This document shows positions 1,018 to 25,406 of a stretch of 32,000 nt of DNA, piece after piece. Below the pieces are notes generated by a model. It was not told the DNA's origin. It ran no database searches and was given only the letters and a program-made list of their open reading frames with translations. Source of the stretch: Corynebacterium glutamicum ATCC 13032 (GTDB taxonomy: Bacteria; Actinomycetota; Actinomycetes; Mycobacteriales; Mycobacteriaceae); the NCBI RefSeq assembly GCF_000011325.1, contig NC_003450.3, positions 2,970,001 through 3,002,000 of the forward strand. Direction: 5' to 3'. The translations under genes and the position numbers were made by a program. Within the stretch, counting starts at the first letter, position 1. The number at the start of each line of letters is the position of its first letter.

Positions 1018-2061
1018 ATGAAAGCATTCGGTTTTTTAAGCTTCGGGCACTATCAAATCGGCCACGAACGTTCCATGCTGAAACAAGCACTGGAATTAGC
1101 AAAAGAAGCAGATGCCATTGGAGTAAATGGCGCATACTTCCGCGTTCACCACTTCGCTCCCCAAGGTACATCCCCGATGCCACTTCTTGGAGCCATCATC
1201 GGTGCCACCAAACACATTGAAGTGGGCACTGGAGTAGTGGATATGCGTTATGAAAATCCCTTGTATATGGCCGAGGAAGCAGCTGCTCTCAATCTGCTTG
1301 CCGACGGCCGACTAGCCCTCGGAGTTTCCAGGGGATCACCCGAACCAGCCGAGAAGGGTTGGGAAGCTTTCGGCTACGACGGCGGTGATGATCCTAAAGC
1401 TGCAGGCATGGCACGGGAGAAATTCCTTCGCTTCCTCGATGCCATCGATGGTCGCCCCATGTCCATCGCTTCCGAGAATCAATACCCACGCCTCTACCAT
1501 CCGGGCACTCCCCTGCCGATCTTCCCGCATGATCCTGACCTGCGTAAATCCATTTGGTGGGGCGCCGGTTCCCACAACACCGCCGAACAAGCAGCACGCG
1601 ATGGCGTTAACTTGATGAGCTCCACCCTCGTCGCCGAAGCCACCGGCCAATCCTTCGGGGATCTGCAAGCCGATCAAATCGCGTTCTACCGCCAAGCTTG
1701 GAAAGAAGCCGGACACGATTGGACCCCACGTGTGTCTGTCTCCAGGTCCATCTTCCCGATCGTCACCGACCGCGACCGTGAGCTTTTCGGACTTCAGGGA
1801 CAAGGCGGTGACCAAGTAGGAATCCTGGATGATACCCGATCCACGTTCGGTCGCAGCTACGCCGGAAGTCCCGATGAACTCATCGACCAGCTCAAGGAAG
1901 ACAAAGCTGTGATGGAAGCCGACACCTTGATGCTCACCGCCCCCAACCAAATGGGTGTTGAGATCAACGCGTCGATCCTGAAGAACTTCGCTGATCATGT
2001 CGCCCCAGCACTGGAGTGGCAACCAAACACTGAAGGTCTGGTTACTGGCTACGAGTTCTAA
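1018..2061 (+). CDS. LLM-class (luciferase-like) flavin-dependent oxidoreductase
   Basis: 347-aa ORF starting 10 nt after the preceding stop. The N-terminus (MKAFGFLSFGHY...) and overall composition resemble luciferase-like monooxygenase family proteins. This is a family-level call from memory only. Confidence 0.7.
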   Translation: MKAFGFLSFGHYQIGHERSMLKQALELAKEADAIGVNGAYFRVHHFAPQGTSPMPLLGAIIGATKHIEVGTGVVDMRYENPLYMAEEAAALNLLADGRLALGVSRGSPEPAEKGWEAFGYDGGDDPKAAGMAREKFLRFLDAIDGRPMSIASENQYPRLYHPGTPLPIFPHDPDLRKSIWWGAGSHNTAEQAARDGVNLMSSTLVAEATGQSFGDLQADQIAFYRQAWKEAGHDWTPRVSVSRSIFPIVTDRDRELFGLQGQGGDQVGILDDTRSTFGRSYAGSPDELIDQLKEDKAVMEADTLMLTAPNQMGVEINASILKNFADHVAPALEWQPNTEGLVTGYEF

Positions 2062-3206
2062 CCCAGAACTTTGTCGATTGAGGCGTTGAGGTCTTCCCAT
2101 AGATCTTCAACGTCTTCAATTCCTACGGAAACGCGGCAAAGAGTCATCGGTACTCCTGCCACCACTTCAGCATCCCGCCTGGTGCGACGTTCAATGGCTG
2201 TTTCCACACCTCCCCAACTGGTCGCGTGGGTTAAAAGTGACAGGCTTTCGAGAATCTCATCAGTTCGTTCAGGTGTTGCATCAAGCTCAAATGACAACAT
2301 GTTTCCACATCCAGAGGGTAGGACTCGCACGGCTTTTTCATGTTGGGGATCATCAGGAAGTCCTGGATAATTGACGCGGGTAACCGAAGGATGCGCGTTA
2401 AGTCGCCGCGAAAGTTCTGCTGCGTTGGATTCTGCTCGATCAAGACGCACCGCCAAGGAATACAATCCACGGAGAGCAAGAAACGCTTCAAGACCTCCCG
2501 GCACTGAACCATGATCATGACGGTGAGTGGCAAGAAACTGCGCATGGTGCTCAGACTTGCACACTGCGACTCCAAGAAGAAGATCAGAGTGTCCACCGAT
2601 AAGTTTGGTTGCCGAGTAAAGCACAATATCAGCACCAAGTTCCAATGGACGTTGACGAAGTGGCGTTGCGAAAGTCGCGTCAACGACAGTCAAAACTCCA
2701 AGCCCACGCACACCGTCGACTATTGCAGGGATATCAGCTACCACCATCGTCGGATTAGCGATCGATTCCACCCACACCACATCTGCACCTTGAGCAGCAG
2801 CAATCACTTCTTCGGTATTGTCTGCATCAACAGTTCGAACCTTCAGCCTTCCGCGGGCTTCCATCCTGGCGAAAATATTGGTCACGCCATAATAGGCAGC
2901 TTTAGGTAAAACAACTGTGCCACCAGTAGGAACCAAATCAGCAATCGACGTTGCCGCTGCCAAACCTGAAGAATAAGATACCGCGAACCCACCATCTAGA
3001 GTTCCCATGGCAGCCTCAAATGCACCCCATCCATCATTGCCATCGCGCCCATAAGCTTTTTCTGAATCATGAACATAAGTGCTGGACAACGTGATAGGTG
3101 GGTTCATCGGCGCACCAGGAGTTCTGGCTGGCCGTCCCGCTTGCACAGTTACTGTGGGTGGACGCCACGCAGGGTTAATAGGTACAGATGGTGGGTAAAA
3201 ATTCAT
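2058..3206 (-). CDS. PLP-dependent Cys/Met-metabolism enzyme (cystathionine gamma-synthase / beta-lyase family)
   Basis: 382-aa ORF with the family PLP-lysine motif YSATKLIGGHSDLL and a C-terminal SWGGVETAIE...RVSVGIED block typical of this family. The start codon is uncertain (alternative internal Met at MNPPITL). Confidence 0.8.
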   Translation of the reverse strand: MNFYPPSVPINPAWRPPTVTVQAGRPARTPGAPMNPPITLSSTYVHDSEKAYGRDGNDGWGAFEAAMGTLDGGFAVSYSSGLAAATSIADLVPTGGTVVLPKAAYYGVTNIFARMEARGRLKVRTVDADNTEEVIAAAQGADVVWVESIANPTMVVADIPAIVDGVRGLGVLTVVDATFATPLRQRPLELGADIVLYSATKLIGGHSDLLLGVAVCKSEHHAQFLATHRHDHGSVPGGLEAFLALRGLYSLAVRLDRAESNAAELSRRLNAHPSVTRVNYPGLPDDPQHEKAVRVLPSGCGNMLSFELDATPERTDEILESLSLLTHATSWGGVETAIERRTRRDAEVVAGVPMTLCRVSVGIEDVEDLWEDLNASIDKVLG

Positions 3207-3227
3207 CAGGCTTCCTTACTTGTTATA

Positions 3228-3797
3228 TCAAGCACGAGGTACACGCTTGTCCAAGGCAACTAAATACCTAGTGGCTACGGTGGTGGGATTAGCAAAGTCG
3301 GTATCTCGCGGAGGCCCAAACCGTAGACAATCCCCCGTTGAAAGTTCGTGGACCTCTTCACCTTCAGTAATACGAACGGCCCCTTCGAGTACCCAGACCA
3401 CCTGATCCATGAAACGATAAGCATCAGCTGGGTAGCCAACTTCCGCCCCAGGAGGCAGCATTACTTCCACTAGTTCTAGTGGGGATTCTGACGGCTGTGA
3501 CACTGCACGCCGTGTGTAACCGGTAGCTGGATCTGTCCATACAGACTGCTTTGACCGCCGAGCGCCCCGGTCATAGCCACCTTCAGCCTGTGCAATGAGC
3601 TCCGAAAGCGTCATACCCAATGCACCGGAAAGGCGTCCAAGTAATGCAGCGCTTGGTTGCGCCTCTGCGTTTTCCACGCGGGAAATCATTGCTCGCGACA
3701 CACCGGAGGATTCAGCTAACGCCGAGATAGAGAGCCTGCGTTGGGTTCGCGCGTCGAAAAGCGCTTTGACGAGAGCAGCACTGAGATCGTCTTCCAT
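3228..3797 (-). CDS. XRE-family HTH transcriptional regulator with C-terminal cupin domain
   Basis: 189-aa ORF. N-terminal HTH_3-like LSISALAESSGVSRAMISRVENAEAQPS, and a C-terminal cupin-like segment (VVWVLEGAVRITEGEEVHELSTGDCLRF). It lies directly upstream of, and co-directional with, the PLP enzyme gene (21-nt gap). Confidence 0.75.
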   Translation of the reverse strand: MEDDLSAALVKALFDARTQRRLSISALAESSGVSRAMISRVENAEAQPSAALLGRLSGALGMTLSELIAQAEGGYDRGARRSKQSVWTDPATGYTRRAVSQPSESPLELVEVMLPPGAEVGYPADAYRFMDQVVWVLEGAVRITEGEEVHELSTGDCLRFGPPRDTDFANPTTVATRYLVALDKRVPRA

Positions 3798-3961
3798 GCA
3801 GACAATAATGTCGCTTTAAGAACAATTTTATCTACTATGAGAACATTTTTAGAGAAAGTAGCCCGCTCTGTGGGAGTAGCATTGGATTGCACAAAACGGA
3901 TCGGGTCACGGGGCTCGGAAGACTACGATGATTCACCCACCTACCGAAAGCGCTTACTGCG

Positions 3962-4386
3962 ATGAATAATCAGCTAGATCAGGGCCCCCTTTTCCACGGA
4001 ACAATAGCGCGGCTTCAACCTGGTGACCTCCTTAAACCTGGTCATAAGTCTAATTACCGTCCTGACATAATCATGAACCATGTTTATTTCACCGCTCTGA
4101 TTAATGGCGCTGGGCTTGCTGCCGAAATCGCTGCTGAATTAGACGCTGGCCTATCGGACGATGTTTTTCAGTTCCCCGGAAAACTCCGCGAGTTTATGAA
4201 GTGAAACCACTGGGGAGTTTTGACAACGATCCCAACGTGACCGACAAGAAGTTTCCAGGCAATCCAACGAGGTCTTATCGCAGTGACGAACTGCTGCAGA
4301 TTATTCGAGAGATCACCGATTGGACTCGGTTAACTCCTGAGGCACTAGCGAAGTGGAGGGAAAGGTTACGCAATTACCCCCAATAA
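3962..4386 (+). pseudogene. arr: Frameshifted rifampin ADP-ribosyltransferase (Arr family) gene
   Basis: Two adjacent ORFs in different frames (3962-4204 and 4201-4386) together reconstitute an Arr-like protein. The first gives QGPLFHGT...PGDLL...NHVYFTAL...AAEIA. The second frame gives (VYE)VKPLGSFDNDPNVTDKKFPGNPTRSYR. These match my recollection of Mycobacterium smegmatis Arr (QGPFYHGT, IGDLL, HIYFSAL, YIYIVEPTGPFEDDPNLTNKRFPGNPTQSYR). The frame switch must lie between about 4150 and 4192. Confidence 0.7.
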
Positions 4387-4410
4387 GAGCGTAGAAATCA
4401 TTAACTAGCT

Positions 4411-4451
4411 GCATCGTTCAATATTAGTGAACGTTCAATATTGATGAACAC
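4411..4451. repeat. 41-bp direct repeat, copy 1 (two tandem 17-bp units GTTCAATATTAGTGAAC / GTTCAATATTGATGAAC); candidate operator
   Basis: gcatcgttcaatattagtgaacgttcaatattgatgaacac matches 6376-6416 at 37/41 positions. Each 17-bp unit is a GTTCA-N7-TGAAC inverted repeat. The copy ends 17 nt before the ATG at 4468 and sits just upstream of a -10-like TACACT (4455-4460). Confidence 0.85.
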
Positions 4452-4467
4452 ACGCTACACTTAGATT

Positions 4468-5595
4468 ATGCCAATAGTAACTTTTGAGGACTGGAATGAA
4501 TCGTTCCTTCAGACGGGACTTCCCTTTGAACTCCTTGGACAGGTTCAAGGCAAGACTTTAGAAGACGAACCCTTCGCCGATATGGGCGAAGCCAAGTTAA
4601 GGATTAAAAATTTTGAATCGGTGAATGCGTCAAAAATAGTGCATGCGCTATATTTCCCCAACTTGAAATATCTCCGATTTACACTGCCACAGTCTGTGGA
4701 CAAGTTCTTTATCTTATCCCCAAGTATTCCCCCTCGAGTTGCTGAACTTTTGCGCGAACAAGGGTTTATGTTCGCCGACCAACGAGGCAATGGTTTCGCA
4801 TCATGGCCTGGGGTCCATATCGATGTCCGCGGTAAAACAAGCACCGATTCATCAAAGAAAATCAAAAGACGAACACCAGATCGTCGAACTGCATCACTTT
4901 TCACTCCTCGCAGAGCTCAAGTATCCGGAGCATTGCTTGCACAACCAGCCATATTAAGGTCACCAATCCGCGAGATTGCAGACTCAGCGTCCGTCTCTGT
5001 TGGCACCGCGATCCAAACTCTTGAATTACTCACCGAAGCTGGCTACTTGCGCAAAATAGAAAGCGGATACCGACTCATGAAAGGCGATGCACTGCTTGAT
5101 TCATGGGCGCATGCCTATCCGACTGGGCTCGGTGTAAGCCAACAAACTTTCAGAGGCAATGGAGACCTTAATCGCTTTAAAAACATTGAACCTCTTGGGT
5201 GGATCAGTGGCGAACAAGCTGTCCCAAAACTTATCAGTGGCGGAAATACTGCACATATTTATGTCAACGATGACAGCGACGACAAGGCCACTAACAAAAT
5301 CATTCAACAAGGACGACTTCGGAGAGATGATACCGAGGGCCAGGTATTAGTTCGACGAGCATTTTGGCGGCAATCAAAAAAGCATAATGAAAGCTACCAT
5401 AAAAGAAATCTATCGCTAGCTTTTCCAACCCCATTTAACATGTGGCCGATCGCTCCATTACCAGTAATCTATGCAGATTTACTGTCCGTTGGGGATCCGC
5501 GCCTATCGGAAGTTGCCTACATTATAAAAACTCAGATTCAGGAATACACAGACCATGATGAATTCACCGAACGCGGACATTATTTTAGTAGTTAA
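4468..5595 (+). CDS. Hypothetical protein with central winged-helix DNA-binding segment; candidate AbiEi-like antitoxin/regulator
   Basis: 375-aa ORF in AT-rich DNA. A wHTH-like segment (IREIADSASVSVGTAIQTLELLTEAGYLRKIESGYRL) is present. The ORF overlaps the downstream nucleotidyltransferase gene and is preceded by tandem palindromes. The ORF itself is well supported; the AbiEi assignment is inference from size, wHTH and partner gene. Confidence 0.45.
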   Translation: MPIVTFEDWNESFLQTGLPFELLGQVQGKTLEDEPFADMGEAKLRIKNFESVNASKIVHALYFPNLKYLRFTLPQSVDKFFILSPSIPPRVAELLREQGFMFADQRGNGFASWPGVHIDVRGKTSTDSSKKIKRRTPDRRTASLFTPRRAQVSGALLAQPAILRSPIREIADSASVSVGTAIQTLELLTEAGYLRKIESGYRLMKGDALLDSWAHAYPTGLGVSQQTFRGNGDLNRFKNIEPLGWISGEQAVPKLISGGNTAHIYVNDDSDDKATNKIIQQGRLRRDDTEGQVLVRRAFWRQSKKHNESYHKRNLSLAFPTPFNMWPIAPLPVIYADLLSVGDPRLSEVAYIIKTQIQEYTDHDEFTERGHYFSS

Positions 5596-6364
5596 CAAGC
5601 TGTCCAAGTTTATTGATATCGAAAATATTATGCTCGTTGGAGCACGATGTAGAGACATTCACCAGCAAAAATATCGCGATCAAACAGCGGGTAGAAGAAC
5701 TAAGGATGTTGACTTCGCTTTAGCTTTAGAAAGCTGGGACGACTTCAATCTATTAAAGCAACAATTCTCACCGACTGGTAACGCATGGCAAGGAATCACC
5801 ATTGGAAATATTCCAGTAGATCTCGTGCCATTCGGAAATATTGAAAACCCACCCGGTGAAGTCTTGTCCAGAAAAGGTCATCTACTTAATGTCGCTGGGT
5901 TCAAGGAAGTATTCGAGCAAGCTGAGCTATATCCCCTAAATGATGCGATAGACATTAAGTTGTCTACAGTTCCCGGACTTACTGCGCTAAAGCTACATGC
6001 ATGGCTCGACCGTAAAGAAAATAACATCAAAGATGCAAGCGATCTAGCATTAATCTTGTCGTGGTACGAAGAGGATGTAGAAACTTTATGGAATCGCTAT
6101 TTTGCCCTGGAAAATCAAGGATACATAGGTGAACCAGAGGCAATGGCAGCTGAATTACTAGGACTTGACACTGGAAGAATACTCGGCCACAAGGAAACTC
6201 AAGCCCTCCTTGATCGATTTAATGAACAGTCTCCTCCTGAGCTAAACCAATTTGCTGAATCACTTGAAGCCCCTCCTGAACACAGTCACCCATTAGAACG
6301 GCGTCGTATCCAGGTCGAGGCACTGTTAGGTGGACTTAGAGATTCCCTCGGTTACGATGAATAG
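5555..6364 (+). CDS. Nucleotidyltransferase-fold protein; candidate AbiEii-like (DUF1814) toxin
   Basis: 269-aa ORF. It has a pol-beta-type NTase signature (MLVGARCRD ... TKDVDFALAL, i.e. G-[SA] followed by a DxD-like acidic pair). It overlaps the upstream gene by 41 nt, though the true start may be further downstream. Its length is typical of AbiEii/AbiGii family proteins. Confidence 0.5.
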   Translation: MMNSPNADIILVVNKLSKFIDIENIMLVGARCRDIHQQKYRDQTAGRRTKDVDFALALESWDDFNLLKQQFSPTGNAWQGITIGNIPVDLVPFGNIENPPGEVLSRKGHLLNVAGFKEVFEQAELYPLNDAIDIKLSTVPGLTALKLHAWLDRKENNIKDASDLALILSWYEEDVETLWNRYFALENQGYIGEPEAMAAELLGLDTGRILGHKETQALLDRFNEQSPPELNQFAESLEAPPEHSHPLERRRIQVEALLGGLRDSLGYDE

Positions 6365-6375
6365 CTTCCAATCCC

Positions 6376-6416
6376 GCATTGTTCAATATTACTGAACGTT
6401 CAACATTAATGAACAC
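6376..6416. repeat. 41-bp direct repeat, copy 2 (GTTCAATATTACTGAAC / GTTCAACATTAATGAAC)
   Basis: gcattgttcaatattactgaacgttcaacattaatgaacac begins 12 nt after the stop codon at 6362-6364. It matches copy 1 at 37/41 positions. Confidence 0.85.
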
Positions 6417-6524
6417 GGCTGTTTAATTTTCTTTTATCCATCAGTCATTTTAAGCTTCCGCCCCTCGGCAAGGTGACGAAAATTTTGTTATTCTCTACGG
6501 TTTGAGGGCTTCTCGCGGGAAGGA

Positions 6525-18843: not shown

Positions 18844-19950
18844 TCACCCACGAATTACTTTCTCGATTTCTTCAACAGCAACATCGAGGCGGATGCGTTC
18901 TTGTTCAATGCGGAGCTCACCGTCTGTAATGAGTAGGTCAAGTGCGTCAGATTCAAAATCATGAAGGTTGTCAAAGCTCTCTGCCTTGAATTCTCGGTCG
19001 GCAACGCCAAGGTAGCGCCAGCGGGAGACGGTTTCAGAGTTCATCAGCACGGATTCGGTGTGAGGAACATGGCTGCGGACGCCGTCGAGAATTTTGAAAC
19101 CGTCCAGGTCAAGGTCACCCCAGTACAGCAACCGACCATTAGAAAAGTAGGGTCCTCGAACAATGTCTACTGCACGGTAGCCCGCACCCCAAGCAATTGT
19201 TACGCCCGGCCAAGTGGGTAAAGCGAGAAATGAATCGAGGTTTTCCACCATCAGAATTACTTGCGGTTCTTGTAATTCACACAGGTTGGAAAGCGGTACT
19301 TCAATGTCTGTGAGCCCAGCGGGAGCATCTACGGAATGGAAGCGGAGCCGGACGCGAGCTTCGGCGTCACCAAGTCCAAGATCGGCACGACCAGGTTCAC
19401 CACGTTTGTCGGCCACTAACGTTTCAATGAGTACGCGGTGGTTTTCGAGCCATTTGGTATGCACGCCTTCAACTGCGACGGCGCGTTTCAGCAGGCCAGA
19501 GTTAGGGTGTTTCAAAAACCAATCCACAACTAACACTGCCTTAGAGAGATCATCGTTAGACAGCGAACGCCACAGCGACACATGTTTCGCCACCACCTCC
19601 GCTGTAAAACCAGACAGCTGTGAAAACCTCTCGTGAAGTGAAGACCATTCATCCTCTACCTGCGCAAACACAACTAATTCCTCAGTCGTGTTCAACGTCA
19701 GCCTAACGGGTACTTCAGTTTTACCTAAGCCCACAGGAGACCAGTTTCGAATGGCATATTCCACATCATCACGCCCCTCCCATTGGCGGATAAATTCCCT
19801 CGTGGCATCAATATCGGCGGCGGCTTTAGCTGCCGTCGGTGGGTGCAGGGGCAGGCTGAGGCCTGCAAATTCGCCGAGGAGCAGCTCGCTTAAGTGCGCG
19901 TGGAAGTATTTTTTGCTGCGGTGGAGGGCGTCGTCGATAAACAATGGCAT
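18844..19950 (-). CDS. mksG: JetD/MksG-like Toprim-domain subunit (putative nuclease) of the Wadjet/MksBEFG-type system
   Basis: The C-terminal domain has Toprim-like acidic motifs: VILMVENLDSF (Glu) and LLYWGDLDLDGFKIL (DxDxD). The N-terminal domain resembles DUF3322. I prefer the ATG at 19950 (MPLFIDDALH), giving the junction TAAcATG with the upstream ATPase gene. The ORF-track start at 20046 would overlap that gene by 95 nt. Confidence 0.85.
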   Translation of the reverse strand: MPLFIDDALHRSKKYFHAHLSELLLGEFAGLSLPLHPPTAAKAAADIDATREFIRQWEGRDDVEYAIRNWSPVGLGKTEVPVRLTLNTTEELVVFAQVEDEWSSLHERFSQLSGFTAEVVAKHVSLWRSLSNDDLSKAVLVVDWFLKHPNSGLLKRAVAVEGVHTKWLENHRVLIETLVADKRGEPGRADLGLGDAEARVRLRFHSVDAPAGLTDIEVPLSNLCELQEPQVILMVENLDSFLALPTWPGVTIAWGAGYRAVDIVRGPYFSNGRLLYWGDLDLDGFKILDGVRSHVPHTESVLMNSETVSRWRYLGVADREFKAESFDNLHDFESDALDLLITDGELRIEQERIRLDVAVEEIEKVIRG

Positions 19951-19951
19951 G

Positions 19952-22900
19952 TTATTTCTCGATCCTAGAGAAACTGGAATTGCCCTGAATTGCGCCCTGG
20001 GCGTTTGGTTTTTCGGTGTAGCTGACCACGATGGTGGAGCCGACATAATCGCCGAGGGTTTGGATAAGTTTCAGCGGGGTCGCGAGCACCATGTGGAAGC
20101 CGAAGCTGTGGAAGACGTTCATGGTTTGGCGGGTGAAGGCGGGGTCGGCGCGGTCGAAGGCTTCGTCCAGAATGACGGTGGCGTAGGTGGGATAATGGGC
20201 GCCGGGTTCGGCTAGCTGGTAGCGCAAGGCAGCGGCGAGGCAGAAAAACACCAGCTTCTGGGCTTGTCCGCCTGAAAGTGATGCGGAGTCGACGTAGGTG
20301 TTGACGGTTGCGCCGTCGGAATCGCGCTCGAGGCCGATGAAGCGAACGTGGCGGCGGGTGTCTAGAACGGTGTTGCGCCAGCGGGCGTCGGCGGAGTCGT
20401 GGGAGGCGAGTTTGGAAATGATTTCAGCGATCAGCGCATAACGGGCGAAGGCTTGTTTCTCGGTACTGGTTCCCAGGTCACCGCTGGTAGCGGCATCAAG
20501 TTTCTGCTGGAATTCCCTCACAATCGGACCACTTTGATCACGGATGTCGATGTGCAGGAAGCGACCTTCGTTGAATTCCGACTGCGCCAAGGAGGCGTTG
20601 ATCGGCTCGATGCGCTCCTCGATTTCCCGGCGCGCATCACGTAGACGCCGCGAGATTTGGCCGAGGTTTCGGGTGGACATCTCGTTCATGAGCCCTAGGA
20701 ATTTGGCCGTGAATTCTGCCAAACGATCGCTGCGAAGCTCGCCGAGGCGGTTGATGGCCTCACCAACAAACTCAGGTTCGGCTTGTAAGTCAGCGCGGTT
20801 CGCAGGCCACGTTTCAATATAGCTGCGCAAAATGCCAACAATTTGGTTTTCACAACGTCGAAGTTCTGCCTCATTGGCATCGATTTGTTTGTCCAGATCC
20901 TCGCGCAGCGCAATGGTCTGCTCATCCACGTTGGCGGCGTGAACCCGGCGGGTGTTGGCAAGAAATAGTTTCTCCACTTCCCGCGCGATTTCTTCAGAAA
21001 CCTCCGCAACCGGCAGGCTTTCGAGCCGTTTCAATTCAGTTTCGGCGCGTTTCAGGTTCATCGACGCCACGGTTTCCTCACTCTGAGCTGCGACAAGCAA
21101 GTCAGAAACCCTCGCGAGCGTCTGCTTCGCCGCCTCATGCCGCGCGGAAAGCTCGGTGGCCTCTGGAGTGTTGTTCAGCTCTTCCAGCAATCGGTCCAGC
21201 TCAGCAATCGCCGCGTCGGCTGATTCCACATCAATCTGAGCCCACGACACTTTCAAAATTTCTTGCGAAGCTTGATACTGCCGTTCAAGTTCCCGCAGCT
21301 CAGCGCGGTTTGCAGCAATGCGATTATCAGCTGCCTGCACAACTGCTTTGCCAGCTTTCACGGTTTCCCGAAGCGTTTCCACCTTGGCATCATTGGTGGA
21401 ACCCAAACGGTATGTGGAACGATCCCCCAGCTTTCGGCGATCATCTTTTTCCCAACGCGTCGTCGGATCGCCTGTCTGCTGCGCAAATTTTCGCACACCC
21501 AAAATGGTCACGCCCTGATCGCGTGGCCCCAGCGCCGACAATTCCTCAGGAGTGCGCACGCACCGAATATTAAAACGCTTGCCTAATTCTTGATTTACCC
21601 AATCGCGAAACGGCGACTCCACAACATCAACTTTTCGGATCAGGGAATCCGCCGGAAAACGCGAGGTTTTGTACTCCCCCGTTGTCACCACGCCGTTGAA
21701 TTTCAGCAGCGCTGCCAAATGTTTGGCATTTACCCAATCCCGAACCCGTGGCAACAACCCATGAGGAACCAACATTTCCGCAGCAAAACCACCCAAAATG
21801 CGCTGCACAACGGGTTCCCATTCCGCATTATTCGGATCAATCAGCTCACCGGCAAAGGGCATATCCCGCGGGCTCACGCCCAAATCCTGACACAAATTTT
21901 CCCGCACCTGCAGCAAACGGTACTCAATATTACTGCTGCCTTTACTCAAAGAAGACAGCTCTTGATCCGCCGCTTTGAACTCATCAACCGCACGGGTTCG
22001 GTCCTCTACATTCCTCTGACCTGCAGATTCAAGCGCTTCCCTCGCCGCCGGATACTCATCCACGGTCAGCCGCGCAGCGTTGTTGAGCTCCAAAAGCTCC
22101 TCCGCCGATTCCGGCGCCGCACCGCCCAGCCCCTTAACCAATGCGTCCAGACCAGCGCGCGCAGTGCTAATTGTTCTTCGCTTATCGACGGCCCCCTCCC
22201 TCTTCGCACTCAAAATTCCATGCTGCGCTCCCACAATTTGTTTGACGTTGTCGTGCGCGAGGGTTTCCATTTCGCGGGCACGATCTGTCTCAATTTTGGC
22301 GGACTCCACCTTCGACTTCGCCTGCGTTTGCTCGACAGTAAATTGTCGAACCAGCGTTTCTTGCTCTTCCTTCTTAATGCGATTCCCGACAGTCGGCAGC
22401 GCCTTCTTCAGTGCATTGGCATGATCTTTGGACTGTTGCGCTTTCTCTCGCCGATTCTTCAGCTGCACCAAAGGATCCAGGGTGTGGATCTGCCGTTTAA
22501 TATCTTCGACCTGCTCATAAGCACCTTCAAGGTCTTGGAATTGTTCCACGGCAGTTTTGGCAATGCTGAACGTATCCGGTTCCACCAGCATGTAATCCCG
22601 AAATAGATCATCCAAGCTTTGAAGATCTTTCGCCGACTGCGCGCGGTGCAACAACAGCAAAGCTTCCTCACTGGAGATCCCCAAACGGCTTCTAAACCTG
22701 CCGGAGAATACAGAATGCTGCTCGCTAAAGATGGCTTCCTTGAAAGCAGCTCTGATCTGGCGTTTATCGATGCCCTCTTTCAGGAAATCCAGCAGCGCAT
22801 TGATGTCTTGATCAACGGGAAACACACCATAATATGAAGAAATATCGGAGGTTAAATTGTGTCCCGATTTCAGATAGAAAATAGCCACCAAGGTGTGCTC

Positions 22901-23287
22901 GACGCCTTCACCGTTGGAATAAGTCAATCCAACCAGCGAATAGGTTGCGCGGGGACGTAGGTACGTGGAGACAATCTGATCCTGCAGCGGATCCTCCTGC
23001 GCACGCCAAGCGCCACGGATATAGGTAACCAAACTGCGTCCCTTATTCCGCGGAGTATTAGCCTGTGCGGCAGAGTTAAACCTCAGCTTTCCTTGCGGAA
23101 GCAATACCGCCGTGATCGCATCAATCAGCGTGGATTTTCCTGATCCCGAACCACCGGTAACTAAGATTCCTTCCCTGGTCACAGGAATGTCCACCGTTCC
23201 GTGGAAGGTTCCCCAGTTGATCAACTGAATCCGAGAAAGACGGAACTGACCTGGGTGGATAGGATCTAAAGCTTGTTCGCTGGTCAC
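19952..23287 (-). CDS. mksB: JetC/MksB-like SMC-family ABC ATPase (1111 aa)
   Basis: N-terminal Walker A GGSGSGKST (nt 23129-23155). The middle, about 800 aa, is rich in E/R/K/L/A/Q and looks coiled-coil. The C-terminal head carries the ABC signature LSGGQAQKL and Walker B ATVILDEAFDRAD. Its start overlaps the upstream stop by 4 nt (ATGA). Confidence 0.9.
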   Translation of the reverse strand: MTSEQALDPIHPGQFRLSRIQLINWGTFHGTVDIPVTREGILVTGGSGSGKSTLIDAITAVLLPQGKLRFNSAAQANTPRNKGRSLVTYIRGAWRAQEDPLQDQIVSTYLRPRATYSLVGLTYSNGEGVEHTLVAIFYLKSGHNLTSDISSYYGVFPVDQDINALLDFLKEGIDKRQIRAAFKEAIFSEQHSVFSGRFRSRLGISSEEALLLLHRAQSAKDLQSLDDLFRDYMLVEPDTFSIAKTAVEQFQDLEGAYEQVEDIKRQIHTLDPLVQLKNRREKAQQSKDHANALKKALPTVGNRIKKEEQETLVRQFTVEQTQAKSKVESAKIETDRAREMETLAHDNVKQIVGAQHGILSAKREGAVDKRRTISTARAGLDALVKGLGGAAPESAEELLELNNAARLTVDEYPAAREALESAGQRNVEDRTRAVDEFKAADQELSSLSKGSSNIEYRLLQVRENLCQDLGVSPRDMPFAGELIDPNNAEWEPVVQRILGGFAAEMLVPHGLLPRVRDWVNAKHLAALLKFNGVVTTGEYKTSRFPADSLIRKVDVVESPFRDWVNQELGKRFNIRCVRTPEELSALGPRDQGVTILGVRKFAQQTGDPTTRWEKDDRRKLGDRSTYRLGSTNDAKVETLRETVKAGKAVVQAADNRIAANRAELRELERQYQASQEILKVSWAQIDVESADAAIAELDRLLEELNNTPEATELSARHEAAKQTLARVSDLLVAAQSEETVASMNLKRAETELKRLESLPVAEVSEEIAREVEKLFLANTRRVHAANVDEQTIALREDLDKQIDANEAELRRCENQIVGILRSYIETWPANRADLQAEPEFVGEAINRLGELRSDRLAEFTAKFLGLMNEMSTRNLGQISRRLRDARREIEERIEPINASLAQSEFNEGRFLHIDIRDQSGPIVREFQQKLDAATSGDLGTSTEKQAFARYALIAEIISKLASHDSADARWRNTVLDTRRHVRFIGLERDSDGATVNTYVDSASLSGGQAQKLVFFCLAAALRYQLAEPGAHYPTYATVILDEAFDRADPAFTRQTMNVFHSFGFHMVLATPLKLIQTLGDYVGSTIVVSYTEKPNAQGAIQGNSSFSRIEK

Positions 23288-23922
23288 TTCTGTTCCTCTT
23301 CATTTCCATCATGGGCTGCTTTGTTAAATTTTTCGTACTCAGCGCGCACACCTGCCACAGTGTCGGCATCAAAAATCTGGCGCAGTGCTGGTGAGACCTC
23401 AAAACGTTCAGGTGTCTCTGTCTTTTTAGCTAATGAATAATCCACGATGCGCCTAAATGCAGCGTCGAATCGCTTAGCTAGTTTGGCTTCATCTCGCTCT
23501 TCATCAACGCGGTAGAGCAACACTTGTTCGCGGATTTCTTCACGATCCACAATGACTCGTTCCCCCGGTGGCGCCATGGTGAGTTCTTGGCGCAGAATCA
23601 AAATGATCAACGTATCAAAATGCGACAGCGTCTCCGTGCGCAGCACTTTGGGCATCGCTTCAGTTTTGTTATTTCCAACCAATACTTCTTGTCTACCATT
23701 GGCAGGCCGAGTAAATGCAACACCCGCATCCTCATCAAGAACCAACTCGAGGAACAAATTGTTAAGCACAGCATTGAGCGCATCTTGATCTGTGGTGATA
23801 GCCCGCCACACTTCAACATGCTGCAAAGCATTCACCATGGGACCTTTGAGTAATTGCACCAGAGCTTTCCTGGACCCAAAAGTCAGCGTTCCAGTGTCGC
23901 CTTCCCACAGCTGATCATTCAT
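23284..23922 (-). CDS. mksE: JetB/MksE-like small acidic subunit (DUF4194-like, MukE/KITE analogue)
   Basis: 212-aa acidic ORF. The segment LVQLLKGPMVNA...VWRAITTDQDALNAVLNNLFLELVLDEDAGVAFTRP matches my memory of the DUF4194 core (LLKGP..., LeLvlDE..G.Af). It has 4-nt ATGA overlaps with both neighbouring genes. Confidence 0.8.
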   Translation of the reverse strand: MNDQLWEGDTGTLTFGSRKALVQLLKGPMVNALQHVEVWRAITTDQDALNAVLNNLFLELVLDEDAGVAFTRPANGRQEVLVGNNKTEAMPKVLRTETLSHFDTLIILILRQELTMAPPGERVIVDREEIREQVLLYRVDEERDEAKLAKRFDAAFRRIVDYSLAKKTETPERFEVSPALRQIFDADTVAGVRAEYEKFNKAAHDGNEEEQK

Positions 23923-25406
23923 TTATCCATCTCGCTTTCTGCCAAATCTTCACTGTTTAAACCCCTGATGAACTGCCATCCTGTAATCCGCCGGCGGTGT
24001 GTGGCATCATCACTTTCCCACTCCACTATTTGCGCGCGACCTGTGGGAACACCATCACGCATCGCCAGGTATAACAATCCAACAATGCTGGCGAGACCTT
24101 GCGTTGCCGGGAAATGTTCTAGTACCTCGGTGATCGTGGCGTGCGATTGCTCGGCAAGAACTAAAGAAACAGCCTCTTCCAATTCCTCAAAATCAATCTC
24201 GCTTGCCCGAATTTGTTCCATCAAGACTTCAGTGTCTAGTTCTTGTTCTTCAACTGGCTCAGGCAAATCTTCGACGCGTTCTTCACCTGGGTTCTTCAGT
24301 TTCAACCCCGCAATCGAGCGAACATCCATACCAATGCGCACGAGTGGTGTGTCCATGTGATTGAGTGAGGTCACTTCACCAGCCTCGGCGGCCTTAGCAG
24401 CGGCACTGCGGGTATCGCGAAGCAACTGAATCATGCGTCGGCTCTCTGCGAACTCCTCGGTAGTGACATAGTGACGCAAACTTCGAGCCAGCCCTGTCAT
24501 TTCCCCGTTGACCTCGAAGCTGGCATCCTCCATATCCCGGAAAATTCGGTACAGCCCTGTCCTTAATTTTGAATCCAGATCAATAGCCTCATCGCGTCCC
24601 AGAACTTCTCTGATCCATCGATCAATCAGACTTGAGCGTTCCCGATCGAGCAAAACATCAAAGAAACTATTGAAGCTGCGCCCCGCATCGGAATCCCCAA
24701 TCAGATCAACTCCCCTGAAGATCTCTTCCAAAACATCACCACGGGAATCTTCAGGATCAAGCAACTGCCTGCGCAGCTTCCGGTTCAGATCGCTCAGCTC
24801 ATGCCTTACCCTGGCGAAATCTGCAGGAATAGATGCTGCTAGATCCAAAATATCTGCTACCCGATCACCAATCTGCACGGTGGTGAGGACTTCAAATTCA
24901 CCAGCGTGGACCGCTTCAATCTGGCGTTCAATCCTGTCGCGTTCACGCTCTAACTCAGCTAAACGTTTCGCTGTGCTGGGGTCCGATTCCAACGCCAAAG
25001 TCTGCAACGCCTGCGTCAACGATTCAATTCGAGACGCCGAAATGCTTCGATGCGGGTTATCCCACCGCTGCACCGAATCCAGCACCGCCAACAGCTCTTC
25101 ACTCGGTTCCACGGTCTCACCAGTCTGCGAACTACCCGGACGACGCACAAACCACCGGGACTTCACCCAATCACTCACATAATCCGACGGGCTTTTCGGC
25201 AGCTCAAATCCTTCTTCACGCAGCACCCGAAAATCATCGCTGAGCAGCTGATACAGCTCTGAGGCCGGCTTAGCGATAGCCCCCTGCGGAAAATACTGCG
25301 CTACCACGGCGAGCACCACCGGAAAGTTGTCACTGCGCAACAAAGACAGCTCCAGGGATTCCTGCCTAAATCGCTTAAACCCAAGCGCGTGCGATACAAC
25401 GGTCAT
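23919..25406 (-). CDS. mksF: JetA/MksF-like subunit (DUF3375-like, kleisin analogue)
   Basis: 495-aa ORF and first gene of the operon. The N-terminal LSLLRSDNFPVVLAVVAQYF and the overall size and position fit DUF3375/JetA. This is an operon-context call strengthened by its three recognisable partners. Confidence 0.8.
   Translation of the reverse strand: MTVVSHALGFKRFRQESLELSLLRSDNFPVVLAVVAQYFPQGAIAKPASELYQLLSDDFRVLREEGFELPKSPSDYVSDWVKSRWFVRRPGSSQTGETVEPSEELLAVLDSVQRWDNPHRSISASRIESLTQALQTLALESDPSTAKRLAELERERDRIERQIEAVHAGEFEVLTTVQIGDRVADILDLAASIPADFARVRHELSDLNRKLRRQLLDPEDSRGDVLEEIFRGVDLIGDSDAGRSFNSFFDVLLDRERSSLIDRWIREVLGRDEAIDLDSKLRTGLYRIFRDMEDASFEVNGEMTGLARSLRHYVTTEEFAESRRMIQLLRDTRSAAAKAAEAGEVTSLNHMDTPLVRIGMDVRSIAGLKLKNPGEERVEDLPEPVEEQELDTEVLMEQIRASEIDFEELEEAVSLVLAEQSHATITEVLEHFPATQGLASIVGLLYLAMRDGVPTGRAQIVEWESDDATHRRRITGWQFIRGLNSEDLAESEMDK

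What the first reader, a model, noticed from the sequence alone, without database searches (positions are those of the whole stretch)
4411..6416. Two-gene wHTH + nucleotidyltransferase cassette (AbiE-like type IV TA / abortive-infection candidate) bracketed by 41-bp direct repeats
A 375-aa protein with a central winged-helix segment is followed by an overlapping 269-aa protein with a pol-beta nucleotidyltransferase signature (G-A...DVD). A regulator/antitoxin followed by an NTase toxin, with palindromic repeats over the promoter, is the organisation of AbiEi/AbiEii modules. The pair lies in DNA that is visibly AT-richer than its flanks and next to another foreign relic (arr). Almost the same 41-bp sequence occurs 17 nt before the first start codon and 12 nt after the second stop codon. 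The cassette therefore has precisely marked borders.
Basis: partly seen in the sequence, partly recalled or inferred. Interest (0 to 1): 0.65.

Follow-up and report, generated by a model that had tools for sequence, protein, structure and literature searches.

The report
Toxin–antitoxin cassette flanked by operator copies
This is a two-gene AbiE-type toxin–antitoxin (candidate phage-defence) module in the Corynebacterium glutamicum chromosome; the gene pair is a known, already annotated kind, but its promoter operator is repeated just after the toxin gene, where a published antisense transcript starts.

Summary
Two overlapping genes (4468-5595 and 5555-6364) lie between 41-nt direct repeats (4411-4451 and 6376-6416, 37/41 identical).

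The AbiE reading is supported:
- Gene 1 matches Pfam AbiEi_2 (E 3e-44).
- Gene 2 passes the AbiEii threshold, and its closest characterised relative is the tRNA-modifying toxin MenT1.
- NCBI already names both proteins this way in C. glutamicum (cg3090/cg3091).

What I add:
- **The repeat is an operator.** Each repeat is two tandem 17-bp palindromes, GTTCA-N7-TGAAC. The same tandem motif sits just upstream of AbiEi_2 genes across Corynebacterium and in 21 metagenome loci, so it is the family's operator, not an insertion scar.
- **Promoter geometry.** In C. glutamicum the operator abuts a promoter whose mapped start site is the ATG itself (leaderless mRNA).
- **The downstream copy is unusual.** Only 3 of 21 complete cassettes compared have one, plus a fourth locus with only its right half on the contig. 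That is two independent clades.
- **The downstream copy looks constrained.** Its half-sites are perfectly kept while its centres drift.
- **An antisense start maps to it.** Published RNA-seq places an antisense start site on its first base, with the -10 inside it.

My best reading is that the downstream copy is a second AbiEi-binding site that controls antisense transcription over the toxin gene. Binding, toxicity and defence are all untested.

The parts
4411..4451 (.). Upstream 41-nt repeat. It is the promoter operator: two tandem 17-bp palindromes GTTCA-N7-TGAAC at 4416-4432 and 4433-4449.
   Evidence: The same tandem motif lies about 18-50 nt upstream of AbiEi_2 start codons in Corynebacterium loci (L002, L004, L006, L007, L009, L013, L086) and in 21 metagenome loci.
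4456..4468 (+). -10-like hexamer TACACT (4456-4461) and the transcription start at the A of the ATG (4468), giving a leaderless mRNA.
   Evidence: A TAnnnT hexamer sits 6-7 nt before the ATG in 8 Corynebacterium loci. Published mapping gives the cg3090 TSS as its start codon with a 5'UTR of 0 (PMC3890552 Table S3).
4468..5595 (+). abiEi (cg3090), 375 aa. Layout: N-terminal alpha/beta domain (aa 1-120), disordered basic linker, winged helix (aa ~147-205), C-terminal AbiEi_2 domain (aa 202-356).
   Evidence: Pfam PF09952, E 2.9e-44. AF2 model with pLDDT 81. Only the wHTH matches PDB folds. NCBI name: AbiEi family antitoxin.
5555..6364 (+). abiEii (cg3091), 269 aa. A DUF1814-type, MenT1-like nucleotidyltransferase and the predicted toxin.
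   Evidence: Pfam PF08843, 28.6 bits against a cut-off of 22.5. The profile hits MenT1 8AN4 at E 5e-7, with T49 aligned to phospho-acceptor T39. Foldseek top hits are MenT1. Invariant residues: G29, A30, R47, T49, D51, D53, K146, D152, R153, K159, D160, D163. cg3090-cg3091 is a primary operon.
6376..6416 (.). Downstream 41-nt repeat. It is a second operator copy, with units at 6381-6397 and 6398-6414.
   Evidence: Equivalent downstream copies occur in L086/L087, L092 and L007. They are absent from 18 other complete cassettes. Half-sites show 0/60 mismatches against 9/42 in the centres.
5823..6439 (-). Published antisense transcripts over the 3' part of abiEii. One has a mapped TSS at 6376 (- strand), is 265 nt long, and has its -10 TAATAT at 6391-6386, inside operator unit 1. 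A longer 617-nt transcript runs 6439->5823 with no mapped TSS.
   Evidence: PMC3890552 Table S7. I placed the coordinates by matching the printed RNA sequences to the window (genome coordinate = window + 2943305).
3962..4386 (+). arr (rifampin ADP-ribosyltransferase) split by a frameshift. It belongs to the same AT-rich variable island.
   Evidence: Pfam Arr-ms on both fragments. arr is intact (140-148 aa) in other strains and relatives.

Best explanation
**What it is.** The locus is a chromosomal AbiE-class toxin-antitoxin / candidate abortive-infection module of the COG4861 (AbiEi_2) - COG4849 (MenT1-like NTase) branch. It sits in a horizontally acquired, AT-rich variable island of Corynebacterium glutamicum.

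**Shown here or in print.**
- The two genes form one leaderless operon.
- The 41-nt repeat consists of two 17-bp palindromes. These form the conserved promoter-proximal motif of this protein family.
- A second copy lies just after the toxin gene in a few Corynebacterium lineages.
- In strain ATCC 13032 an antisense transcript starts on the first base of that copy, with its -10 inside it.

**Inferred mechanism.**
- AbiEi binds the GTTCA/TGAAC half-sites through its winged helix. The last unit ends 5-6 nt before the -10, so binding would block RNA polymerase and autorepress the operon.
- The C-terminal AbiEi_2 domain neutralises the NTase. The likely route is binding the toxin and inducing its auto-phosphorylation on the invariant T49, as shown for MenT1, MenT3 and AbiEii.
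- The freed NTase adds nucleotides to tRNA 3' ends and stops translation.
- The downstream copy is a second AbiEi-binding site kept by selection. It places the antisense promoter over the toxin gene under the same repressor. When AbiEi runs low, antisense transcription would then rise together with sense transcription and hold down toxin relative to antitoxin.
- The downstream copy may also loop with the promoter operator or block read-through into cg3092.
For: - **Family assignment:**
- **Module conservation:** 14 of 16 metagenome loci with enough flank carry the NTase directly downstream.
- **Operator found without a gene filter:** a pattern-only metagenome scan for the tandem motif returned 63 loci. 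In 21 of them an AbiEi_2 gene starts at or just after the motif.
- **Fixed geometry in Corynebacterium:** the last unit starts at -35 from the ATG and is followed by TAnnnT.
- **Published transcript data (PMC3890552):** leaderless TSS; a cg3090-cg3091 operon; cg3092 monocistronic with its own TSS at window 6504; an antisense TSS at window 6376.
- **Downstream copies:** highly significant in the window, L086 and L007 (z>20), and also present in L092.
- **Constraint on the half-sites:** all half-sites are intact while the centres differ (Fisher p 2e-4).
- **Conserved island:** between the window and L086 the copy is about 85% conserved, and the surrounding intergenic DNA is much more diverged.
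- **Phospho-acceptor:** T49 is invariant and aligns with MenT1 T39. The auto-phosphorylation mechanism is described in PMC11375011 and bioRxiv 10.64898/2026.01.19.700257.
- **Indirect TA evidence:** a C. diphtheriae CDS with a C-terminal AbiEi domain scored essential by TraDIS (PMC10166564). It is probably the 30%-identical homologue P0016, which would imply an active partner toxin.
Against: - No binding, toxicity, phosphorylation or phage data exist for this branch.
- 18 of 21 complete cassettes lack a downstream copy, so it is not needed for basic function.
- I saw no canonical -10 on the minus strand of the downstream copies in L086 or L007. The antisense promoter may therefore be specific to C. 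glutamicum, or may be transcriptional noise from an AT-rich palindrome.
- The upstream copy carries the same TAATAT on the minus strand, yet no antisense start was reported there.
- The half-site statistic has some ascertainment bias, because two of the three copies were found with a half-site pattern.
- PADLOC's models gave only weak hits to candidate systems.
- The Pfam AbiEii match covers only the C-terminal half of the model.
- Some C. glutamicum strains keep an intact NTase beside an AbiEi reduced to its C-terminal 172 aa. The whole cluster cg3072-cg3091 can be deleted. So the toxin may be weak or silent.
Confidence: 0.6

Rival explanations
1. The downstream copy is a non-functional by-product of how the cassette was built or moved. 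Possible routes are Campbell-type integration, or unequal exchange between operators of two cassettes followed by deletion. Its conservation and the antisense start would then be incidental.
For: It is present in only two clades. In L086 the duplicated segment is longer (about 59-62 nt) and includes non-operator sequence 5' of the units, as expected for a plain duplication. AT-rich palindromes readily give spurious promoters.
Against: Half-sites are perfect in three lineages while the centres drift. The copy is a conserved island in diverged intergenic DNA. No trace of a second abiEi gene lies to the right of it. It arose or persisted in two cassettes whose AbiEi proteins are only 39% identical and which sit at different chromosomal sites.
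Confidence: 0.2
2. The two operator copies act mainly as recombination anchors or att-like ends of an exchangeable cassette. Alleles would be swapped, excised or captured by crossover in the only DNA that divergent cassettes share. Exchange might be aided by a recombinase in trans or by the unannotated N-terminal domain of AbiEi.
For: L086 and L092 carry cassette alleles about 65-70% identical at one locus. Their identity rises to 85-100% from the downstream operator rightwards. Cassettes with the same operator sit in many unrelated contexts without any integrase nearby. The N-terminal domain has invariant D104, G107 and N108 and a near-invariant D/E119-x-R121. It also gives a weak Foldseek hit to the nuclease EndoMS.
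Against: On the left, divergence between the window and L002 does not break at the upstream operator and extends into arr. Only about 60 nt of flank are available in L086. No empty site or solo operator was found. No recombinase is adjacent. The N-terminal domain has no Pfam match, and the acidic/basic pair is lost in P0016 and P0020. No close relatives occur on plasmids or phages.
Confidence: 0.12
3. The downstream copy regulates the neighbouring host gene (cg3092 here, menD in L007). AbiEi would have been co-opted as its regulator, or the copy would compensate for the polar effect of the insertion.
For: In the bracketed loci where the downstream neighbour is on the contig (the window, L092 and L007), the copy lies upstream of a co-directional gene. 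In L007 a TAGGCT hexamer follows the copy at the same spacing as the -10 of the sense promoter.
Against: In C. glutamicum the mapped cg3092 TSS (window 6504) is 90 nt beyond the copy, too far for occlusion. cg3092 is transcribed as a monocistronic unit. L002 has lost the copy and still keeps the cg3092-type gene and its proximal upstream region. The neighbouring genes are unrelated between lineages.
Confidence: 0.08

Closest known systems
AbiE of Streptococcus agalactiae / Lactococcus (AbiEi-AbiEii; COG5340-COG2253)
   Same: A bicistronic operon with the regulator first. The antitoxin has a wHTH plus a C-terminal antitoxicity domain. The toxin is a DUF1814 pol-beta NTase. Repeats in the promoter are used for negative autoregulation (PMC3985639, PMC7319586).
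   Different: The antitoxin is Pfam AbiEi_2/COG4861. It has an extra N-terminal domain and a central rather than N-terminal wHTH. It gives no sequence or fold match to AbiEi 6Y8Q or Rv2827c 1ZEL. The operator is two or three abutting 17-bp palindromes, not two 23-bp inverted repeats spaced by 3 bp. A second operator copy lies 3' of the toxin gene.
MenT1 (Rv0078A) of Mycobacterium tuberculosis, a COG4849 NTase toxin
   Same: It is the closest solved and characterised relative of the toxin (profile E 5e-7; Foldseek E 8.6e-4, probability 1.00). The RxT(K/R)DVD motif is shared, with Thr aligned to phospho-acceptor T39, and so is the catalytic Lys/Asp region.
   Different: MenT1 pairs with the small, unrelated antitoxin MenA1, which has no wHTH, and that operon is not autoregulated (PMC11375011). 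The protein here is about 80 aa longer and has a helical C-terminal extension. TM-scores are modest (0.35-0.48).
Phage lambda OL/OR (analogy only)
   Same: Clusters of tandem 17-bp operators lie about 2 kb apart and enclose a repressor gene together with an abortive-infection module (cI-rexAB). This comparison rests on my own knowledge.
   Different: There is no homology. Looping is not shown here. The two clusters are direct repeats that flank a single operon.
Cassettes bracketed by recombination sites (integron attC cassettes, Acinetobacter pdif modules)
   Same: A small module, sometimes a TA pair, lies between short conserved palindromic sites and turns up in varied contexts. This comparison rests on my own knowledge.
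   Different: The sites here travel with a DNA-binding regulator whose family always carries them at its promoter. No integrase or Xer-type core is evident, and no excision products or empty sites were seen.

Membership tests
AbiE-type TA (Pfam definition) | The antitoxin carries an AbiEi-family domain. | tested here: met
   PF09952 AbiEi_2, E 2.9e-44, 151 bits against a cut-off of 21, residues 202-356. The same domain is found in all homologues.
AbiE-type TA (Pfam definition) | The toxin is a DUF1814/AbiEii nucleotidyltransferase above the gathering score. | tested here: met
   PF08843, 28.6 bits against 22.5, E 1.7e-6. Only model positions 119-229 of 238 are matched.
AbiE-type TA | A bicistronic operon with the regulator gene first and the genes overlapping or abutting. 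| tested here: met
   The genes overlap by 41 nt. cg3090-cg3091 is listed as a primary operon with one TSS. 14 of 16 metagenome loci keep the pair.
AbiE-type TA | NTase catalytic motifs are present (hG[G/S], DxD, motif III/IV Lys/Asp). | tested here: met
   G29-A30 (a GA variant), D51-x-D53, K146, D152-R153 and K159-D160..D163 are invariant in 32 sequences.
AbiE-type TA | The antitoxin binds inverted repeats in its own promoter and autorepresses. | tested here: inconclusive
   Conserved tandem palindromes abut the -10 in every lineage examined. Binding and repression cannot be tested with these tools.
AbiE-type TA | The toxin arrests growth, the antitoxin rescues, and the system protects against phage. 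| not testable with these tools
   There is only indirect evidence: an AbiEi-domain CDS is essential in C. diphtheriae. Against this, the cluster is deletable in C. glutamicum.
Characterised AbiEi / MenA3 / MenA4 antitoxins (COG5340) | Sequence or fold similarity to AbiEi 6Y8Q or Rv2827c 1ZEL. | tested here: not met
   phmmer and profile searches of the PDB find only weak wHTH matches. Foldseek with the AF2 model finds no hit at E<=0.001, and neither 6Y8Q nor 1ZEL is among the top 50.
MenT1-like (COG4849) toxins | Homology to MenT1 and a conserved phospho-acceptor Thr next to DxD. | tested here: met
   Profile E 5.2e-7 to 8AN4, with T49 aligned to T39. Foldseek ranks 1-5 are MenT1 entries.
MenAT1 system | A MenA1-type small antitoxin as partner. 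| tested here: not met
   The partner is a 375-aa wHTH protein of the AbiEi_2 family.
PADLOC-defined defence systems | A match to a curated AbiE model. | tested here: not met
   Only weak hits to the candidate systems PDC-M05A (E 0.007) and PDC-M21B (E 1e-5).
Mobile cassette with insertion scars (transposon / integrative element) | The flanking repeats are target-site duplications or att sites, with a recombinase and empty sites. | tested here: not met
   The repeat sequence travels with the gene in unrelated contexts, so it belongs to the element and not to the target. No recombinase lies nearby. No empty site turned up among the loci fetched, and no dedicated search for one was made.

The most novel reading that the evidence does not exclude
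The operator bracket is a functional architecture not described for any TA or defence module. One repressor-antitoxin would hold two facing promoters, the sense promoter at the 5' end and an antisense promoter at the 3' end of the toxin gene. When the antitoxin is lost, an antisense RNA or a transcription collision would then selectively damp the toxin. The same conserved operator pair would delimit the unit at which divergent cassette alleles are exchanged.
Probability: 0.2. Interest if true: 0.65.

Novelty: new variant of a known kind. Interest (0 to 1): 0.42.

Why it matters
- **An untested branch in a tractable host.** The papers I read describe no characterised COG4861-COG4849 pair. This one sits in C. 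glutamicum, a well-studied model organism with published start-site maps.
- **A testable operator.** The analysis gives the branch a concrete operator: tandem GTTCA-N7-TGAAC units at 17-bp period.
- **A candidate phospho-acceptor.** T49 is the residue to test for toxin control.
- **A possible second control layer.** If the 3' operator copy really puts an antisense promoter under antitoxin control, it would add a second layer of toxin control to an enzyme-neutralised TA system.
- **A possible route for allele exchange.** The same copy could explain how such cassettes swap alleles without a recombinase of their own.
- **If it does nothing.** The locus is then an ordinary, already annotated chromosomal AbiE module.

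Tried and rejected
- **Target-site duplication or att scar.** Rejected, because the repeat is the conserved promoter motif of the gene family in many contexts.
- **Remnant of a second tandem cassette.** The translated DNA to the right of the downstream copy shows no AbiEi similarity.
- **Intrinsic terminator.** The RNA hairpins over the downstream copy are weak (-8.8 kcal/mol, z -0.9). The consensus scan finds none there. The published analysis reports 'no significant termination'.
- **Binding site of a host regulon.** No further exact unit occurs in the 32-kb window. The 40 metagenome loci with the motif but no AbiEi_2 gene have no common neighbour.
- **Plasmid or phage origin.** No phage match was found. 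Only distant (<32% identity) family members appear on plasmids or megaplasmids, though these still carry degenerate versions of the motif.
- **Known RNA elements or tRNA integration site.** None found.
- **Nuclease identity of the AbiEi N-terminal domain.** There is no Pfam hit and only a weak EndoMS fold hit. Left open.
- **Search limits.** The first attempt at a genome-wide locus search failed because the alignment was too divergent. The second returned only 4 loci.
Full report
**1. Observation**

The window carries a 375-aa ORF (4468-5595, +) and a 269-aa ORF (5555-6364, +) that overlap by 41 nt. A 41-nt direct repeat lies at 4411-4451 and 6376-6416, 37/41 identical. Reading the sequence, the upstream copy ends 16 nt before the ATG and the downstream copy starts 11 nt after the stop.

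Each copy consists of two abutting 17-bp palindromic units, GTTCA-N7-TGAAC. The relaxed unit pattern matches only these four sites in 32 kb, against 0.05 matches expected. GC content falls to 0.42-0.49 between about 3800 and 6600, against 0.51-0.57 in the flanks. The upstream neighbour is an arr gene broken into two ORFs, and both match Arr-ms.

**2. Organism and context**

The exact proteins occur on more than 500 contigs, and named members of their clusters are from Corynebacterium glutamicum. NCBI names them 'type IV toxin-antitoxin system AbiEi family antitoxin' and 'nucleotidyl transferase AbiEii/AbiGii toxin family protein'. All C. glutamicum chromosomes fetched through a flanking 81-aa protein have the same arrangement.

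The genes are cg3090 and cg3091. They lie at the end of the cluster cg3072-cg3091, which has been deleted in genome-reduced strains (PMC7533341). No recombinase is nearby. A Wadjet JetABCD system lies about 12 kb to the right.

**3. The proteins**

*Gene 1 (antitoxin).*
- It matches Pfam AbiEi_2 (PF09952) at E 2.9e-44 over residues 202-356.
- An AlphaFold model (pLDDT 81) shows an N-terminal alpha/beta domain (1-120), a disordered basic linker, a winged helix (about 147-205) and the C-terminal domain.
- Neither sequence profiles nor Foldseek connect it to the solved AbiEi (6Y8Q) or Rv2827c (1ZEL). Only the wHTH finds matches.
- A profile of 16 homologues finds 4087 clusters at 50% identity, so the family is large.

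*Gene 2 (toxin).*
- It passes the Pfam AbiEii cut-off (28.6 against 22.5 bits), but only over the C-terminal half of the model.
- A profile of 32 homologues hits the M. tuberculosis toxin MenT1 (8AN4) at E 5e-7. The invariant motif R47-x-T49-K-D51-V-D53 aligns to MenT1's R-F-T39-R-D-V-D.
- The AlphaFold model (pLDDT 90) has MenT1 entries as its five best PDB matches.

*Literature.* Dy et al. 2014 predicted COG4861-COG4849 pairs alongside the characterised COG5340-COG2253 AbiE. Later work shows that AbiEii, MenT3 and MenT4 belong to the COG2253 class. MenT1 is COG4849 but has an unrelated antitoxin. Toxin control works through antitoxin-induced auto-phosphorylation of the Ser/Thr next to DxD. 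The cassette is therefore a member of the predicted branch, for which the papers I read describe no characterised pair.

**4. The repeat is the family's operator**

Homologous cassettes sit in different genomic contexts: C. faecale, C. diphtheriae, Corynebacterium spp. A21, LK2510 and HMSC27B11, and others. All carry one to three tandem GTTCA-N7-TGAAC units just upstream of abiEi.

A pattern-only scan of metagenome contigs for two tandem units returned 63 loci. In 21 of them an AbiEi_2 gene begins at or just after the motif. In 14 of the 16 loci with enough flank, the NTase follows. The other 40 loci share no common neighbour. Distant plasmid-borne members in Arthrobacter and Ralstonia carry degenerate versions of the motif, and Paraburkholderia has a single near-match.

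Fifty-six units give the consensus GTTCA-(A/T)TA(A/T)TA(T/A)-TGAAC. In Corynebacterium the last unit starts at -35 or -36 from the ATG in eight loci. A TAnnnT hexamer follows, 6-7 nt before the ATG. Published 5'-end mapping in ATCC 13032 puts the cg3090 TSS on its start codon (leaderless) and lists cg3090-cg3091 as one operon. A protein bound to the units would cover the -35/spacer region. The repeat is therefore element-borne regulatory DNA, not a target duplication.

**5. The downstream copy**

I compared 21 complete cassettes by local alignment of each upstream region against the 400 nt after the NTase gene. Only three have a downstream copy (z>20), and the other 18 score at background. The three are:
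- the window;
- L086/L087 (AbiEi 63% and NTase 71% identical to the window's, at the same arr-adjacent locus);
- L007 (AbiEi 39% identical, at a different locus upstream of menD).

A fourth locus, L092, carries another allele at the cg3092 locus and also has a downstream copy. L002, a relative of L086, has lost abiEii and the copy together in one deletion.

Several observations bear on the copy's status:
- In L086 the duplicated segment is longer, about 59-62 nt.
- Across the three upstream/downstream pairs the 5-nt half-sites show 0 mismatches in 60 positions, while the centres show 9 in 42 (p 2e-4). There is some ascertainment bias here, because two of the copies were found with a half-site pattern.
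- Between the window and L086 the downstream copy is about 85% identical and the intergenic DNA around it is much more diverged.
- There is no trace of a second abiEi gene beyond it and no convincing terminator hairpin.

**6. Published transcript data give the copy a function to test**

Table S7 of Pfeifer-Sancar et al. 2013 lists an antisense transcript to cg3091 with a mapped TSS at 2949681, 265 nt long, with -10 'TAATAT'. It also lists a longer 617-nt antisense transcript from 2949744.

I matched the printed RNA sequences to the window (genome coordinate = window + 2943305):
- The TSS is window position 6376 on the minus strand, the first base of the downstream repeat.
- The TAATAT is at 6391-6386, inside operator unit 1.
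- cg3092 has its own TSS at window 6504, 90 nt beyond the copy, and is scored monocistronic.

No antisense or divergent start is reported at the upstream copy.

**7. Interpretation**

Shown:
- membership of the gene pair in the AbiEi_2 and AbiEii/MenT1-like families;
- the operon and its leaderless start;
- the family-wide association of the tandem palindromes with the promoter;
- a second copy in two clades;
- an antisense start at that copy in one strain.

Inferred:
- AbiEi binds both sites and autorepresses the operon.
- Its C-terminal domain neutralises the NTase through phosphorylation of T49.
- The NTase blocks tRNA function.
- The downstream site places antisense transcription across the toxin gene under AbiEi control. 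It may also loop with the promoter operator or block read-through.

Against a conserved antisense role:
- I found no canonical -10 on the minus strand of the copies in L086 or L007.
- Most cassettes do without a downstream copy.

The main rival is that the copy is a neutral relic.

A third reading is that the copies act as recombination anchors. Its support is a step in identity between the L086 and L092 alleles, from about 65-70% to 85-100% at the downstream operator. On the left side, however, no such break is seen.

**8. Verdict**

What goes beyond annotation is the definition of the operator for this uncharacterised branch and the 3' operator copy that coincides with a mapped antisense promoter. 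I rate this a new variant of a known kind, of moderate interest.

Noticed in passing
window 4416->6381; L086 201->2166: The operator-to-operator spacing is exactly 1965 nt in both C. glutamicum and the L086 lineage. AbiEi differs by three indels (+24 nt before the abiEii start in the window), and the stop-to-operator spacer differs by 24 nt in the opposite direction (16 vs 40 nt). In L007 the spacing is 1847 nt. This may be coincidence or a length constraint.
   Followed up: partly
window 6381-6414; L086 2166-2199; L007 6755-6788; L092 1193-1226: The downstream copies share features that are rare in upstream units. Unit 2 reads GTTCAnCATTAATGAAC in all four; C at position 7 occurs in only 6 of 56 upstream units. 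C precedes the 3' half-site of unit 1 in three of the four. This hints at common ancestry or a specific requirement.
   Followed up: no
window 4416-4432 vs L086 201-217: Unit 1 of the L086 operator is the exact reverse complement of the window's unit 1. Both copies in each lineage share their lineage's orientation. This suggests inversion of the unit centre followed by concerted change of the two copies.
   Followed up: no
window 4468-4827 (AbiEi residues 1-120): This is a conserved N-terminal alpha/beta domain that Pfam does not annotate. D104, G107, N108, I118 and G122 are invariant, and D/E119-x-R121 is nearly so. It has no Pfam hit and only a weak Foldseek match to the nuclease EndoMS 5gkj.
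   Followed up: partly
window 5077-5595 (AbiEi M204 to end): Some C. glutamicum genomes (for example GFK20075.1 and BCB33357.1) annotate only the C-terminal 172 aa of AbiEi, which is the Pfam AbiEi_2 domain. In at least one of them (GFK20075.1, neighbour GFK20076.1) a full-length NTase lies next to it. The DNA-binding half therefore seems dispensable for viability there.
   Followed up: partly
L053 531-581: A metagenome contig that looks C. glutamicum-like carries three operator units upstream instead of two, with unit 1 duplicated. The unit number therefore varies within the species.
   Followed up: no
window 3962-4386: arr is frameshifted in this strain (80-aa and 61-aa fragments). It is an intact 140-aa gene in other C. 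glutamicum strains and a 148-aa gene in L002.
   Followed up: partly
window 2061-6510 vs L002 4867-7123: This is a variable island between conserved flanks that are 89-96% identical. The window has a Cys/Met-metabolism PLP enzyme, an XRE-cupin regulator, arr and abiE. L002 has an acetyltransferase, arr and abiEi only.
   Followed up: partly
window 18844-25406 (-): A complete Wadjet/Mks-type plasmid-defence operon: JetD, an SMC-like JetC, JetB (DUF4194/MksE) and JetA (DUF3375).
   Followed up: no
L007 6139-6657; L003 7109-7909: The NTase gene is truncated or split in two other Corynebacterium cassettes, while abiEi and its operators stay intact. L002 has lost the toxin entirely. Toxin decay with antitoxin retention therefore recurs.
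   Followed up: partly
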